From: a virus
Lineage: Duplodnaviria; Heunggongvirae; Uroviricota; Caudoviricetes
IMG/VR virus record: IMGVR_UViG_2634166457_000006
Location: 1 to 20,300 of that record
Direction: 5' to 3' (one strand)
DNA: 20,300 nt
The notes under the pieces are model-generated. The model was not told where the DNA came from, ran no database searches, and saw only the letters and a program-made list of their open reading frames with translations. Positions within the stretch are counted from its first letter, which is position 1. Each line of letters starts with the position of its first letter. Of this stretch, positions 5,327 to 7,385 are shown piece after piece. A program made the position numbers and the translations under genes.

Positions 5327-5502
5327 TGCAGCGGGTGCTTGAGGCTATCTGTCTCAGGCATGAACACCAAAAGGCAGATAGAGAAAAGCCCCAGTTAACA
5401 TTACGCGTCCTGCAAGACGCTTAACATTAATCTGAGGCTCAATCTATGAACGGCAAATCTAGGTTAGCCTCTTACGTGCCGAAAGGCAAGGAGAAGCAGG
5501 CT

Positions 5503-5658
5503 ATGAAGCAGCAAAAGGCGATGTTAGTCGCCCTGATCGTCATCTGTATTACCGTCATTGTGACGGCACTGGTAACGAGGAAAGACCTCTGCGAGGTACG
5601 AATCCGAACCGGCCAGACGGAGGTCGCTGTCTTCGCAGCTTACGAACCTGAGAAGTAA
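5503..5658 (+). CDS. hok: Hok/Gef-family type I toxin, 51 aa
   Basis: MKQQKAMLVALIVICITVIVTALVTRKDLCEVRIRTGQTEVAVFAAYEPEK closely matches Hok/Gef as recalled (TRKxLCE..R.G..EVA.F.AYE). AAGGAG SD 9 nt upstream. An in-frame upstream ATG at 5446 with GAGG SD gives a mok-like 70-codon frame. Confidence 0.8.
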   Translation: MKQQKAMLVALIVICITVIVTALVTRKDLCEVRIRTGQTEVAVFAAYEPEK

Positions 5659-5716
5659 GAGACCTGGCGGGGGAGAAATCCCTCGCCACCTCTGATGAGT
5701 CAGGCATCCTCAATGC

Positions 5717-5749
5717 ACCCGCACTTAACCTGCTTCGGCGGTTTTTTTC
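5717..5749 (+). terminator. Putative 3' end and terminator of the hok-type mRNA
   Basis: Short GC stem followed by a T7 run at 5742-5748, just downstream of the 3' complementary element. Confidence 0.35.
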
Positions 5750-5867
5750 ACGTACTGTGGTTGTGAATACGATTGGTATTAGGATATGCTAACAACATTA
5801 GCTTGACTAATTTTGTATTGACTTGATTTTTGTTAAAGAACAGGACGGAGAAGTAAGGGGGCACCCA

Positions 5868-6047
5868 ATGAGCTACGCACTAAAAAAACACCCGCGATTG
5901 ACTATTCCCCCTCGCGATAAAAGCGTTGTGGCAGCTCCGCGCCCGGCTATCGATGAAAATTGCACTCATCGTGAGCAGGTGAAAAATGCTTTCGATTTCG
6001 GTTTTTCTCGTTACGAGAAGGCAATGGAAGAACTTTCAAAAGTGTAA
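5868..6047 (+). CDS. Putative antitoxin partner of the Doc-family toxin, 59 aa, not Phd-like
   Basis: ATG 5868 with TAAGGGGG SD; small ORF immediately upstream of, and nearly abutting, the Doc-family gene. Confidence 0.5.
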   Translation: MSYALKKHPRLTIPPRDKSVVAAPRPAIDENCTHREQVKNAFDFGFSRYEKAMEELSKV

Positions 6048-6065
6048 TGATGGGTATTGTGCTCT

Positions 6066-6551
6066 ATGGCTGAGATTGTTGAAGGAGTGCATTACCTTAC
6101 GGTTGATGATCTTGTTGAAATCAATCGTTCCCTAATTGAATTACAGACGCCAGATGAGCCCGTTGGTGTTCTGAGTCCAGATAACTTAAGTTCTTCTCAG
6201 GCCCGTCCCAGCATGGTTCGATGGTATGAACAGACTAATGACATGTTTGTACTGGCATCGGTATTGATTGAAAGTCTGATTCAGAATCATCCGTTTGCTA
6301 ATGCGAACAAACGAACAGCTATGATGGCTGGTTACGTCTTCTTGTTGTTGAATGGCTATGAGTTAACAGCACCAGGCGATGAAATCGTGGAAATGGCAGA
6401 GGGACTGGCCTGCAAAACCTATACTCGAGAAGATCTCGAGAACTGGTTGTGTTATTGGTCTCGCGCGTATGACAGCCGGGAATTATGTAAAACAGGCGCA
6501 ACTATTGTTTTGTATGAAACTATCAAGCTTAAAATAGAACAGCAAAACTAA
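6066..6551 (+). CDS. Doc (death-on-curing) family toxin, Fic/Doc fold
   Basis: HPFANANKRTA motif matches the Doc signature (P1 Doc HIFNDANKRTA) with similar flanking regions. ATG 6066 chosen; the ORF-track start 6057 is TTG. Confidence 0.75.
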   Translation: MAEIVEGVHYLTVDDLVEINRSLIELQTPDEPVGVLSPDNLSSSQARPSMVRWYEQTNDMFVLASVLIESLIQNHPFANANKRTAMMAGYVFLLLNGYELTAPGDEIVEMAEGLACKTYTREDLENWLCYWSRAYDSRELCKTGATIVLYETIKLKIEQQN

Positions 6552-6565
6552 AGGCGCTTCCAATG

Positions 6566-6595
6566 AAAACCCGCTTCGGCGGGTTTTTTGTTGTT
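6566..6595 (+). terminator. Rho-independent terminator
   Basis: AAAACCCGC-ttcg-GCGGGTTTT hairpin followed by a T-run. Confidence 0.7.
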
Positions 6596-6671
6596 TATTT
6601 TCGGTGAGTATGATGCATCTGGTTGTACTGATGTGGTTGGCTGATTCTGTTATTCAGGTGGCTTATTGCTG

Positions 6672-6699
6672 TTGATTGGTATGTCTTCACGGCTAGAAT
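6672..6699 (+). promoter_or_regulatory. Candidate sigma70 promoter (-35 TTGATT, 16-bp spacer, -10 TAGAAT)
   Basis: Hexamers at 6672-6677 and 6694-6699, positioned after the terminator and upstream of the gene at 6780. Confidence 0.4.
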
Positions 6700-6779
6700 C
6701 GAGGCTCTTAAGTAGCGCGCAGGGAGAAGAGGGATGGACCCCGAAGGGGAAGAGCTATTTATCTGGAAGGATTCTGAAG

Positions 6780-7040
6780 ATGAAAATCGAAGAATTGCGT
6801 GAAATTTTTAGTGGAAATGGCCTCTATGCTGTGCACGTTGAGAATGGCGCTATTGTCAGCCACTGCCGTATTAAATGTTTACAGTCTCAACAAAGGAAGA
6901 GTGGGGCTGCGTTAATTTACTTTGTGGATGGACTAGTGACGGATGGTTTTATTTTGCGTAAAAATGAATTTGTCACATCGTTGCCGTCTCTGAAAGAAGC
7001 TGGGATTAAGGCTGGTTTTTCTGCTTTTGAAGATGAGTGA
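6780..7040 (+). CDS. Hypothetical protein, 86 aa
   Basis: ATG 6780 with GGAAGG SD; the ORF-track start 6666 lies upstream of the predicted promoter. Confidence 0.45.
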   Translation: MKIEELREIFSGNGLYAVHVENGAIVSHCRIKCLQSQQRKSGAALIYFVDGLVTDGFILRKNEFVTSLPSLKEAGIKAGFSAFEDE

Positions 7041-7106: not shown

Positions 7107-7385
7107 ATGGCGCAAAATTCCAGACTACACAATTCTGATAATTCAGCCGTCTTTGCCAGCAGGCACGGGCGGCGTACTCACGCATTCAAATATGACTGGT
7201 ATCAGCACGATCCCTGCACTGAAGAACAGGCCGAATGGCTGATTCATAACTACCGCAGACGTGGGTATGAGTTTAGGAAAGCCCTCAGTCTGGATTATCG
7301 TCACTGGATAATCTCCGTCAGGCTTCCTTACTCCGAACGCCCACCGCGTCCGTCCCGCACATTCCAGCAACGGATCTGGAGGTAA
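7107..7385 (+). CDS. Hypothetical protein, 92 aa, basic
   Basis: ATG 7107 with GGAGAAAG SD; function unknown. Confidence 0.5.
   Translation: MAQNSRLHNSDNSAVFASRHGRRTHAFKYDWYQHDPCTEEQAEWLIHNYRRRGYEFRKALSLDYRHWIISVRLPYSERPPRPSRTFQQRIWR

What the first reader, a model, noticed from the sequence alone, without database searches (positions are those of the whole stretch)
5868..6551. Doc-family toxin paired with a small upstream protein that is not Phd-like
The 161-aa ORF carries the Doc signature HPFANANKRTA. Its upstream partner (59 aa, MSYALKKHPRL...) does not look like Phd/YefM, suggesting an uncharacterised antitoxin type. The pair sits directly next to the hok-type locus, making a two-toxin island between the nin-like genes and DUF968-rusA-Q. 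Two TTGACT direct repeats at 5803-5808 and 5818-5823 upstream may be promoter or operator elements.
Basis: partly seen in the sequence, partly recalled or inferred. Interest (0 to 1): 0.65.

Follow-up and report, generated by a model that had tools for sequence, protein, structure and literature searches.

The report
Prophage Doc toxin with headless antitoxin
A lambdoid E. coli prophage carries a two-gene toxin-antitoxin cassette in which a Doc-type translation-blocking kinase is always preceded by an unannotated 59-residue protein that seems to be only the toxin-binding helix of an antitoxin, with no DNA-binding domain; this is a useful minimal variant of a well-known system, not a new kind of system.

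Summary
A 59-aa ORF (5868-6047) sits 18 nt upstream of a 161-aa Doc-family ORF (6066-6551; TIGR01550 E=1.5e-37; motif HPFANANKR), next to a hok/sok locus in a lambdoid prophage.

The small protein matches no Pfam, NCBIfam, PADLOC or PDB entry. Its only match is PHROG 2208, of unknown function. It is nevertheless a real family under purifying selection, and its pairing with this Doc subfamily is near-absolute:
- 33 of 33 gammaproteobacterial loci chosen by Doc alone have it just upstream.
- 80 of 80 viral contigs chosen by the small gene alone have Doc just downstream.
- No third gene recurs.

AlphaFold2 predicts an unstructured N-terminus (1-33) and one confident helix (34-57). That helix resembles the C-terminal Doc-binding helix of MazE/AbrB-type Doc antitoxins such as E. 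faecalis EFPhd (hhalign P=3.5e-4, above all 100 shuffles). The N-terminus resembles nothing.

My reading is a type II Doc module carried as a phage moron, with an antitoxin reduced to the neutralising helix plus a short conserved basic tail (RLxIPxRDK). The TTGACT repeats fit no consensus promoter. The hok adjacency results from insertion at the hok terminator. I call it a new variant of a known kind, of modest interest.

The parts
5720..5748 (+). hok terminator, which is the left boundary of the inserted Doc cassette and the left copy of a duplicated terminator
   Evidence: Homology to hok-bearing phages ends at 5747. The single terminator of phage HannyBb matches both 5720-5747 and 6568-6602.
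5749..5867 (+). Upstream non-coding region of the cassette. It holds TTGACT at 5803 and 5818, a weak inverted repeat GCTAAcaacaTTAGC (5788-5802), and the RBS AAGGGGG (5855-5861). The promoter is not identified.
   Evidence: Sequence read. No consensus promoter. The best inverted repeat is not significant here (p=0.13 for the equivalent L001 region). GAGG/GGAG-type RBS sequences are visible upstream of the small ORF in most of the related loci printed (by eye, not tallied).
5868..6047 (+). 59-aa putative antitoxin (family = PHROG 2208, no Pfam or NCBIfam entry)
   Evidence: ORF. RefSeq calls it WP_000119356.1, hypothetical protein. Family of 39 representatives, nearly all 38-95 aa. pN 0.23 against pS 0.70. 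Always directly upstream of Doc.
5895..5921 (+). Conserved N-terminal motif RLTIPPRDK (residues 10-18) inside the predicted unstructured, Pro- and basic-rich segment 1-33. Function unknown.
   Evidence: R16, D17 and K18 are invariant, and R10, L11, I13 and P14 nearly invariant, among close relatives. I13 and R16 are invariant, and P14 nearly so, across the wide family. pLDDT 58-72 with no regular structure. No similarity to the AbrB domain (P=0.48).
5967..6038 (+). Predicted C-terminal amphipathic helix (residues 34-57, HREQVKNAFDFGFSRYEKAMEELS), the proposed Doc-binding and neutralising element
   Evidence: AlphaFold2 helix 34-57 with block pLDDT 84-94. Most conserved part of the family, with pN 0.14. 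hhalign to the C-termini of MazE-type Doc antitoxins gives score 19.7 and P=3.5e-4; 0 of 100 column shuffles reach it.
6066..6551 (+). 161-aa Doc-family toxin (Fic fold; predicted EF-Tu kinase)
   Evidence: PF02661 E=6.6e-12. TIGR01550 E=1.5e-37. PHROG 577 Doc-like toxin E=1.8e-51. Closest solved relative is EFDoc 9VZC, E=4.7e-13; P1 Doc 3K33 gives E=5.6e-5.
6288..6320 (+). Catalytic Doc motif HPFANANKRTA, which fits HxFx(D/N)(A/G)NKR
   Evidence: Read from the sequence. H75, F77, N79, N81, K82 and R83 are invariant in 23 homologues.
6565..6588 (+). Intrinsic terminator after Doc, the right copy of the duplicated hok-type terminator. The inserted segment extends to about 6706.
   Evidence: Terminator scan: 10-bp stem, GCTTCGGC loop region, T-run. 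The stretch 6568-6602 is 94% identical to the HannyBb hok terminator, and homology to HannyBb resumes at 6707.

Best explanation
This is a self-contained type II toxin-antitoxin cassette carried as an accessory gene block (moron) by temperate phages of Gammaproteobacteria. Here it is inserted at the hok terminator in the nin region of a lambdoid E. coli prophage. By homology with P1 Doc, the downstream gene encodes a Doc-family Fic-fold kinase that should phosphorylate EF-Tu and stop translation. The upstream 59-aa protein is its cognate antitoxin. It is mostly disordered on its own, and its C-terminal amphipathic helix (residues ~34-57) docks into the Doc groove, as the C-terminal helices of Phd and of the MazE/AbrB-type EFPhd do. 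Unlike those antitoxins it has no folded DNA-binding domain. It is a 'headless' antitoxin: the neutralising element plus a 33-residue basic, proline-rich tail with a conserved RLxIPxRDK motif of unknown role (candidates: protease handle, second contact with Doc, or weak DNA contact). Shown here: family membership of Doc, intact catalytic motif, coding constraint on the small ORF, strict two-gene synteny, predicted helix, and profile similarity of that helix to known Doc-binding helices. Inferred: toxicity, EF-Tu as the target, neutralisation by the helix, and the biological role (prophage retention and/or exclusion of other phages).
For: Doc identity and catalytic motif. The small ORF is a real protein: a Shine-Dalgarno-like sequence precedes it here and in most related loci; pS is 0.70 against pN 0.23, and 0.14 in the helix; RefSeq calls it a CDS. 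Synteny from both sides: all 33 loci from ~21 gammaproteobacterial genera picked by Doc alone have a family member ending 3-25 nt before Doc, and all 80 IMG/VR contigs picked by the small protein alone have a full Doc directly downstream. No third gene family recurs in more than 5 of 33 loci. Decay is one-sided, as expected for a toxin and its antidote: Doc is frameshifted or truncated with the small gene intact in L021, L032 and L034 and missing in L004, and Doc was never seen without the small gene. The AlphaFold2 model has a single helix 34-57 at pLDDT 84-94 and an unstructured 1-33. The helix aligns to the C-terminal toxin-binding segment of MazE/AbrB-type Doc antitoxins (RYEKAMEELSKV against KHNELYKELVTK, EYDDVFKALVEK and RYRNTLKELADS) with hhalign P=3.5e-4, and no column shuffle reaches that score. 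EFPhd residues 52-79 are a bent helix inserted into EFDoc (PMC13034048), and EFDoc is the closest solved relative of this Doc. The cassette sits in varied accessory positions in prophages: the nin region, a baseplate module, next to dinI/umuDC, and next to integrase in P2-like Pseudomonas phages. It is bounded by terminators.
Against: There is no experimental evidence for toxicity or neutralisation. HMMER alone does not detect the helix similarity, and hhalign probability is only 13-37%, so convergence on the same groove cannot be separated from homology. No convincing promoter was found in the window. Upstream palindromes are enriched across loci (9 of 34 at p<0.05; compensatory arm changes in Providencia and Morganella). 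That hints at operator-based autoregulation, which sits awkwardly with an antitoxin lacking a DNA-binding fold. An isolated Phd-C element from another system failed to neutralise unless it was stabilised (PMC10440598).
Confidence: 0.75

Rival explanations
1. The small protein is a complete autoregulating antitoxin. Its N-terminal basic segment (RLxIPxRDK ... [KR]x[KR]P) binds an operator, for example as a beta-ribbon or minor-groove tail assembled on a Doc dimer. The module would then be regulated like classical Phd-Doc, and 'headless' would be wrong.
For: Inverted repeats are enriched in the ~100 nt upstream of the small gene (9 of 34 loci at p<0.05, 19 of 34 at p<0.2). In Providencia and Morganella a palindrome lies between -35-like and -10-like hexamers and both arms change together (TAATGTA..TACATTA against TAATGAAAG..CTTTCATTA). 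The N-terminal half has 6 K+R against 3 D+E and 5 Pro, and a conserved motif.
Against: No DNA-binding domain is detected (Pfam and NCBIfam). There is no similarity to the AbrB domain (P=0.48). AlphaFold2 gives no fold for 1-33. Several of the significant repeats are GC-rich terminators of the upstream gene. Nothing is significant in this window.
Confidence: 0.2
2. The small protein is not an antitoxin. It is an unrelated phage accessory protein, or a regulator or adaptor of Doc that activates or targets it, and Doc is controlled in some other way.
For: No annotated antitoxin family matches. The function is untested.
Against: Synteny is perfect and tightly spaced across ~21 genera and different phage backgrounds. 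Doc is never found alone, while the small gene outlives a decayed Doc. The C-terminal helix resembles known Doc-binding helices. [quoted passage not shown]
Confidence: 0.07
3. The Doc here acts mainly during lytic growth, as a phage effector that modifies host translation or counters a defence. The small protein would only time or limit that activity, rather than the pair acting as an addiction or abortive-infection module in the lysogen.
For: In this window the pair lies in the nin region, which is transcribed from the early rightward promoter under antitermination (established lambda biology). No own promoter was found.
Against: In other phages the same pair sits in a tail or baseplate module, next to integrase or att, or near dinI/umuDC. 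It is flanked by terminators here. Many other loci show -35/-10-like hexamers. This pattern is typical of lysogen-expressed morons.
Confidence: 0.15
4. The Doc gene is an inactive remnant and the pair is evolutionary debris.
For: Some copies are frameshifted or truncated (L021, L032, L034).
Against: The catalytic residues are invariant in 23 homologues at 63-90% identity. 79 of 80 viral copies scored as full length automatically, and the eightieth (L142) was confirmed by reading its ORFs. The copy in this window is intact and ~99% identical to copies in O157:H7 and O121 genomes.
Confidence: 0.03

Closest known systems
Phd-Doc of phage P1 (PDB 3K33, 3DD7)
   Same: It has a Doc toxin with the HxFx(D/N)(A/G)NKR motif, a small upstream labile-type antitoxin gene in a compact operon, and residence in a temperate phage. 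Neutralisation is by a C-terminal helix that is disordered on its own (established knowledge of Phd; for this protein it is a prediction).
   Different: There is no Phd/YefM N-terminal DNA-binding domain (no Pfam hit) and no sequence similarity to Phd (hhalign probability 0.2%). This Doc is 161 aa and only distantly related to P1 Doc (E=5.6e-5), with a conserved C-terminal extension EDLENWLCxWSRxYDSRxLC.
MazE/AbrB-type antitoxin with Doc: TasA-TasB (B. thuringiensis pGI1) and E. faecalis EFPhd-EFDoc (PDB 9VZC)
   Same: EFDoc is the closest solved relative of this Doc (E=4.7e-13). The next-nearest Docs to this subfamily (Streptococcus, Listeria, cyanobacteria; ~32% identity) carry this antitoxin type. 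The C-terminal ~20 residues share the pattern x[RKE][YH]xxx[LFMY]xxL[SAV]xx at the same distance from the C-terminus, with hhalign P=3.5e-4.
   Different: The swapped-hairpin / beta-dome DNA-binding domain (about 50 residues) is absent. It is replaced by an unrelated 33-residue unstructured tail.
Phd-C linear neutralising element of PanA antitoxins (NetFlax; PMC10440598)
   Same: Both rest on the idea of a short helical element that alone carries Doc neutralisation and can be moved between antitoxin scaffolds. That paper also notes that single-domain antitoxins consisting only of a neutralisation domain exist.
   Different: Here the element would be a natural stand-alone gene product, not an appendage of Panacea. 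Similarity to PanA Phd-C itself was not tested.
Small helical inhibitors of Fic proteins (VbhA, YhfG/FicA)
   Same: They are small, mostly helical proteins without a DNA-binding domain, encoded just upstream of a Fic-fold enzyme (PMC2701414).
   Different: The defining inhibitory motif (S/T)xxxE(G/N) is absent: 2 of 48 family members match it, at non-conserved positions. No Pfam hit of any kind was found. The partner is a Doc-type kinase, not an AMPylating Fic.
Three-component systems whose antitoxin lacks DNA binding (omega-epsilon-zeta; paaR-paaA-parE)
   Same: The antitoxin has no DNA-binding domain (established knowledge of those systems).
   Different: Those systems have a separate regulator gene. 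Here no third gene is conserved within 2 kb of the pair in 33 loci.

Membership tests
Fic/Doc superfamily, Doc subfamily (PF02661; TIGR01550) | Profile match above the curated cut-offs | tested here: met
   PF02661 at 46.6 bits against a cut-off of 24. TIGR01550 at 128.5 bits against 38.65.
Fic/Doc superfamily, Doc subfamily (PF02661; TIGR01550) | Doc-type catalytic motif HxFx(D/N)(A/G)NKR | tested here: met
   HPFANANKR at residues 75-83. The motif residues are invariant in 23 homologues.
Fic/Doc superfamily, Doc subfamily (PF02661; TIGR01550) | Kinase activity on EF-Tu Thr382 and growth arrest | not testable with these tools
   Inferred from homology only.
Type II toxin-antitoxin module | Compact two-gene operon: a small gene directly upstream of the toxin on the same strand, conserved as a unit | tested here: met
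   The gap is 18 nt here and 3-25 nt elsewhere. Synteny is 33/33 and 80/80. No third conserved gene.
Type II toxin-antitoxin module | The antitoxin protein binds and neutralises the toxin and is proteolytically unstable | not testable with these tools
   Only indirect support: the predicted disordered-plus-helix architecture, similarity to known Doc-binding helices, and one-sided decay of the toxin.
Type II toxin-antitoxin module | Autoregulation through a DNA-binding domain of the antitoxin | tested here: inconclusive
   No DNA-binding domain was detected, yet upstream palindromes are enriched across loci.
Phd/YefM antitoxin family | Phd/YefM N-terminal fold or profile match | tested here: not met
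   No Pfam or NCBIfam hit at E<=0.1. hhalign to P1 Phd gives probability 0.2%. A profile search of PDB finds no Phd.
MazE/AbrB (SpoVT-AbrB, PF04014) antitoxins of Doc | Swapped-hairpin AbrB-like N-terminal domain | tested here: not met
   No PF04014 hit. The N-terminal 33 residues compared with the family profile give P=0.48, no better than shuffles.
MazE/AbrB (SpoVT-AbrB, PF04014) antitoxins of Doc | C-terminal Doc-binding helix | tested here: inconclusive
   hhalign score 19.7, P=3.5e-4, and 0 of 100 shuffles reach it. HMMER finds nothing, and hhalign probability is only 37%.
Fic inhibitors of the VbhA/FicA/YhfG type | Inhibitory motif (S/T)xxxE(G/N) | tested here: not met
   Absent from the window protein. 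2 of 48 family members match at non-homologous positions.
Known anti-phage defence systems (PADLOC-DB 2.0) | Profile match to a catalogued defence protein | tested here: not met
   The small protein has no hit. Doc has only weak hits to PDC-S23 and PDC-S05 (E>=0.002).

The most novel reading that the evidence does not exclude
The conserved N-terminal tail (RLxIPxRDK followed by a [KR]x[KR]P patch) is a functional module of a new kind, not a spacer. It could be a sensor or degron that releases Doc on phage infection or prophage loss. It could instead be a pseudo-substrate that occupies the Doc active site: PPRDKSVVA loosely echoes the EF-Tu acceptor loop GGRTVGAGVVA, with Asp in place of Thr382 (EF-Tu sequence checked; the resemblance itself is untested and not conserved in the most distant members). 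The cassette would then be a minimal phage-borne abortive-infection or exclusion device that works without transcriptional autoregulation.
Probability: 0.15. Interest if true: 0.6.

Novelty: new variant of a known kind. Interest (0 to 1): 0.35.

Why it matters
If confirmed, this would be a natural, widespread Doc antitoxin reduced to a stand-alone neutralising helix plus a short tail. The family has about 37 small stand-alone representatives at 50% identity, occurs in roughly 21 gammaproteobacterial genera sampled here and at least 117 viral contigs, and is present in at least 93 complete E. coli genomes, including O157:H7 and O121. It would give a compact model for three questions: how little of an antitoxin is needed to hold Doc, how such a module is regulated without a DNA-binding antitoxin, and how neutralising elements move between antitoxin scaffolds. 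It would also let an unannotated protein family (PHROG 2208; 'hypothetical protein' in RefSeq) be named. It does not change the picture of toxin-antitoxin biology: antitoxin swapping around Doc and single-domain antitoxins are already documented.

Tried and rejected
1. Complex prediction.
2. Doc monomer model. The AlphaFold2 model built from 23 close homologues was poor (mean pLDDT 48.7), so no fold search was run. Doc assignment rests on HMMs.
3. Homology of the small protein to Phd. Rejected: hhalign probability 0.2%, and a PDB profile search finds only chance hits.
4. A 'truncated AbrB domain' reading of the N-terminus. A full-length hhalign alignment suggested it by pairing RLTIPPRDKSVVAAP with beta3-beta4. 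Rejected because the N-terminal half alone scores no better than shuffles.
5. Detecting MazE-type antitoxins with HMMER, using a C-terminal-only profile. It found nothing beyond the family itself.
6. The TTGACT repeats as a promoter. No hexamer pair with 16-18 nt spacing passes the consensus scan, and I found no -10 hexamer with the required A2/T6 at the right spacing by hand.
7. A third conserved gene (separate regulator). None found.
8. Prior description. There are no papers citing WP_000818166 or WP_000119356. The family's motifs were not found in the held supplementary alignments of Fico and Mahillon 2006, although the text format may hide them.
9. Viral-contig scan with the broad alignment A4. 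It failed for lack of a conserved stretch, so A1 was used instead.
Full report
**1. What is in the window**

On the + strand a 59-aa ORF runs from ATG 5868 to the stop at 6045-6047. An AAGGGGG Shine-Dalgarno-like sequence lies 6 nt upstream of its start. A 161-aa ORF follows 18 nt later, from ATG 6066 to 6551.

The larger ORF is a Doc-family protein by every profile tried:
- Pfam Fic/DOC, E=6.6e-12.
- NCBIfam TIGR01550 'death-on-curing family toxin', E=1.5e-37, 128.5 bits against a cut-off of 38.65.
- PHROG 577 'Doc-like toxin', E=1.8e-51.

It carries HPFANANKR at residues 75-83, which fits the Doc motif HxFx(D/N)(A/G)NKR. Those residues are invariant in 23 homologues of 63-90% identity. The closest solved structures are E. 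faecalis EFDoc (9VZC, E=4.7e-13) and P1 Doc (3K33, E=5.6e-5).

The surroundings are those of a lambdoid prophage:
- Replication genes and DUF1627, then DUF551.
- A hok/sok locus (Pfam Hok E=7.3e-23; Rfam sok E=2.5e-26).
- The pair itself.
- Two small phage ORFs, then DUF968/HNH.
- RusA, Q, lysis genes and terminase.

The stretch 5700-6700 is about 99% identical to prophage DNA in E. coli O157:H7 and O121 chromosomes. RefSeq annotates it there as 'hypothetical protein' (WP_000119356.1) plus 'type II toxin-antitoxin system death-on-curing family toxin' (WP_000818166.1). Of 5426 complete E. coli genomes, 93 hold at least 80% of this stretch, always on the chromosome.

**2. The small ORF is a real, constrained protein of an unannotated family**

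It has no hit in Pfam, NCBIfam or PADLOC at E<=0.1. A profile search of all PDB sequences gives no meaningful hit. Its only match is PHROG 2208, 'unknown function'.

A word-indexed search found 17 clusters, all in Enterobacterales. An exhaustive HMM search of 1.84 billion representatives found 39 proteins. Thirty-seven of them are small stand-alone proteins of 38-95 aa; the other two are long proteins (1274 and 2917 aa) with several short matched stretches. None is fused to a known domain.

Across 21 orthologues, synonymous sites are nearly saturated (median pS 0.70) while nonsynonymous change is low (pN 0.23; 0.14 in the C-terminal part). The frame is therefore under purifying selection. Most of the orthologues printed show a GAGG- or GGAG-type ribosome-binding site upstream of the start.

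**3. The pair is a strict two-gene unit**

I picked loci by Doc alone from one genome per species. All 33 gammaproteobacterial loci have a member of the small family on the same strand, ending 3-25 nt before Doc. They come from Serratia, Providencia, Yersinia, Morganella, Citrobacter, Hafnia, Xenorhabdus, Arsenophonus, Gilliamella, Pseudomonas, Halomonas, Kushneria, Marinobacter and others, with Doc identity down to 38%.

I then picked loci by the small protein alone from IMG/VR. All 80 loci kept, out of 117 found, have a full Doc directly downstream. The script scored 79, and the eightieth (L142) was confirmed by reading its ORFs. No other gene family recurs within 2 kb in more than 5 of the 33 loci.

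Decay is one-sided. Doc is frameshifted in Proteus penneri (L032) and Arsenophonus nasoniae (L034), N-terminally damaged in L021, and absent in L004. In each of these the small gene is intact. I saw no Doc of this subfamily without the small gene. This is the pattern expected of a toxin and its antidote.

**4. It is a mobile accessory cassette of temperate phages**

The same pair sits in several different places:
- The nin region of lambdoid prophages.
- Inside a baseplate module in Ewingella.
- Beside dinI and umuDC.
- Next to the integrase, near one end of the genome, in P2-like Pseudomonas phages Sirocco and LPPA56.

In this window it is an insertion. Homology to hok-bearing phages such as HannyBb, 933W and VT2-Sakai stops at 5747, at the T-run of the hok terminator. 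For HannyBb it resumes at 6707, so about 960 bp here replace about 57 bp there.

The single hok terminator of HannyBb matches both 5720-5747 and 6568-6602. The cassette is therefore flanked by two copies of that terminator (the terminator at 6565-6588 is). The hok-Doc adjacency is thus a consequence of where the cassette landed, not evidence of a functional two-toxin unit.

**5. What the small protein looks like**

AlphaFold2 with the family alignment gives mean pLDDT 77. It predicts no regular structure for residues 1-33 (block pLDDT 58-72) and a single helix at 34-57 (block pLDDT 84-94).

Conservation matches this picture. The helix QVKNAFxxGFxRYEKAMEELSKV is the most conserved part. The N-terminal half is variable apart from the motif RLxIPxRDK and a basic-Pro patch. 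It has 6 K+R, 3 D+E and 5 Pro in 33 residues.

**6. Relation to known Doc antitoxins**

There is no similarity to P1 Phd (hhalign probability 0.2%).

The Docs next nearest to this subfamily, at about 32% identity, are in Streptococcus, Listeria and a cyanobacterium. They are preceded by MazE/AbrB-type antitoxins. PF04014 is above its cut-off for the Symploca and Listeria proteins. This is the 'mazE-doc' composite first described as TasA-TasB (PMC1626090).

In the structurally solved member, EFPhd-EFDoc, residues 52-79 of the antitoxin form a bent helix inserted into Doc. The last 15 residues are the main toxin-binding segment (PMC13034048).

The C-termini of these antitoxins line up with the C-terminus of the 59-aa protein in the same register from the end:
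- ...KQKHNELYKELVTK
- ...FDEYDDVFKALVEK
- ...KKRYRNTLKELADS
- ...FSRYEKAMEELSKV (the 59-aa protein)

I tested this with profiles, comparing 48 small-family sequences with 19 non-redundant MazE-type Doc antitoxins. The full-length comparison gave hhalign score 21.2 and P=0.0022. Column-shuffled controls averaged 9.0 (sd 1.9, maximum 15.8 in 200), and the reversed control scored 11.7.

All of the signal is in the helix: score 19.7, P=3.5e-4, and 0 of 100 shuffles reach it. The N-terminal 33 residues score no better than shuffles (P=0.48).

HMMER alone does not see the similarity, and hhalign's calibrated probability is modest at 13-37%. My conclusion is that the helix is similar to known Doc-binding helices beyond chance. 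Whether that reflects common descent (loss of the DNA-binding head) or convergence on the same groove remains open.

**7. Mechanism proposed**

- Doc, by homology, is an EF-Tu kinase that arrests translation (established for P1 Doc; cited in PMC10440598).
- The 59-aa protein neutralises Doc through its C-terminal helix, in the manner of Phd and EFPhd.
- It lacks the DNA-binding domain of classical antitoxins.
- The Fic-inhibitor motif (S/T)xxxE(G/N) of VbhA/FicA-type proteins is absent.

The role of the conserved N-terminal tail is unknown.

Regulation is also unresolved. In the window I find no consensus promoter. TTGACT is not over-represented, with 6 copies against 9.2 expected. The best inverted repeat, measured on the near-identical upstream region of L001, is not significant.

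Across loci, however, inverted repeats upstream of the small gene are enriched: 9 of 34 at p<0.05 and 19 of 34 at p<0.2. In Providencia and Morganella a palindrome lies between -35-like and -10-like hexamers, and both arms change together. This keeps alive the rival that the tail, or the complex, does bind DNA.

**8. Comparison with what is known, and novelty**

Antitoxin exchange around Doc has been documented since 2006, including several groups of unannotated small upstream partners (PMC1626090). Makarova et al. added YhfG as a small helical partner of Fic/Doc proteins, and they state the rule that a small gene in a conserved operon with a toxin is an antitoxin (PMC2701414). Ernits et al. 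showed that a 'Phd-C' element alone, once stabilised, neutralises a Doc, and they note that single-domain antitoxins made only of a neutralisation domain exist (PMC10440598).

Against that background, this locus is a new variant of a known kind. It combines a specific, widespread but unnamed antitoxin family that looks like a natural stand-alone Doc-neutralising helix with a distinct long-form Doc subfamily, and it travels as a phage moron.

I found no paper on this family or these accessions. I did not find its motifs in the held supplementary alignments of the 2006 paper, although the text format may hide them.

**9. Verdict**

My confidence that this is a functional or recently functional type II Doc module with the 59-aa protein as antitoxin is about 0.75. 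Interest is modest, at 0.35. The open and more interesting part is the conserved N-terminal tail and how a module with such an antitoxin is regulated.

Noticed in passing
window 5333-5658: A complete hok/sok-type type I toxin locus. The mok-like ORF is 5446-5658, the hok ORF is 5503-5658 (51 aa), and the Rfam sok model matches 5333-5508 at 112 bits. It is 92-98% identical to hokW/hokD regions of Stx phages and other lambdoid phages.
   Followed up: partly
window 5720-5748 and 6565-6602: The hok terminator is present twice, flanking the Doc cassette. Phage HannyBb has a single copy that matches the left copy on its 5' side and the right copy on its 3' side. This suggests the cassette entered by recombination at or within a UUCG-loop terminator, or brought a near-identical terminator of its own.
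   Followed up: partly
L008, L010, L013, L014, L021 (Providencia and Morganella), about 60-100 nt upstream of the small gene: The sequence TTGACT-TAATGTAgcttaacTACATTA-TAAT places a palindrome between -35-like and -10-like hexamers. In L010 and L014 both arms change together to TAATGAAAG / CTTTCATTA. It looks like an operator, although the antitoxin has no recognisable DNA-binding domain.
   Followed up: partly
L032 (Proteus penneri), L034 (Arsenophonus nasoniae), L021 (Providencia), L004 (metagenome contig): Doc is frameshifted, truncated or absent while the small gene stays intact. No locus has an intact Doc of this subfamily without the small gene. This matches the expected one-sided decay of a toxin-antitoxin pair.
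   Followed up: partly
window 5913-5939 (residues 16-24, RDKSVVAAP): PPRDKSVVA loosely resembles the EF-Tu loop around the Doc target residue, GGR(381)T(382)VGAGVVA, with Asp in place of Thr (EF-Tu sequence checked). The spacing differs, and the Asp is lost in the most distant family members. It may well be chance.
   Followed up: no
window 6066-6551, residues 117-141: This Doc subfamily has a conserved C-terminal extension (YxxEDLENWLCxWSRxYDSRxLC, with invariant Trp and Cys residues) beyond the region that aligned to EFDoc and P1 Doc (residues 6-116 of this protein). A variable tail of about 20 residues follows it. Its role is unknown.
   Followed up: no
window 5667-5748 and 6500-6589: Two sub-threshold Rfam hits: isrK at 21.9 bits (gathering score 50) over the hok 3' end, and rsmX at 31.1 bits (gathering score 56) over the end of Doc and its terminator. 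Both are probably terminator hairpins and not sRNA genes.
   Followed up: no
window 6780-7040 and 7107-7385: Two small ORFs lie between the cassette and DUF968. They match PHROG 340 and PHROG 1212, both of unknown function. In related phages the matching stretch carries features named 'rem' and 'ydfU' alongside hypothetical proteins.
   Followed up: no
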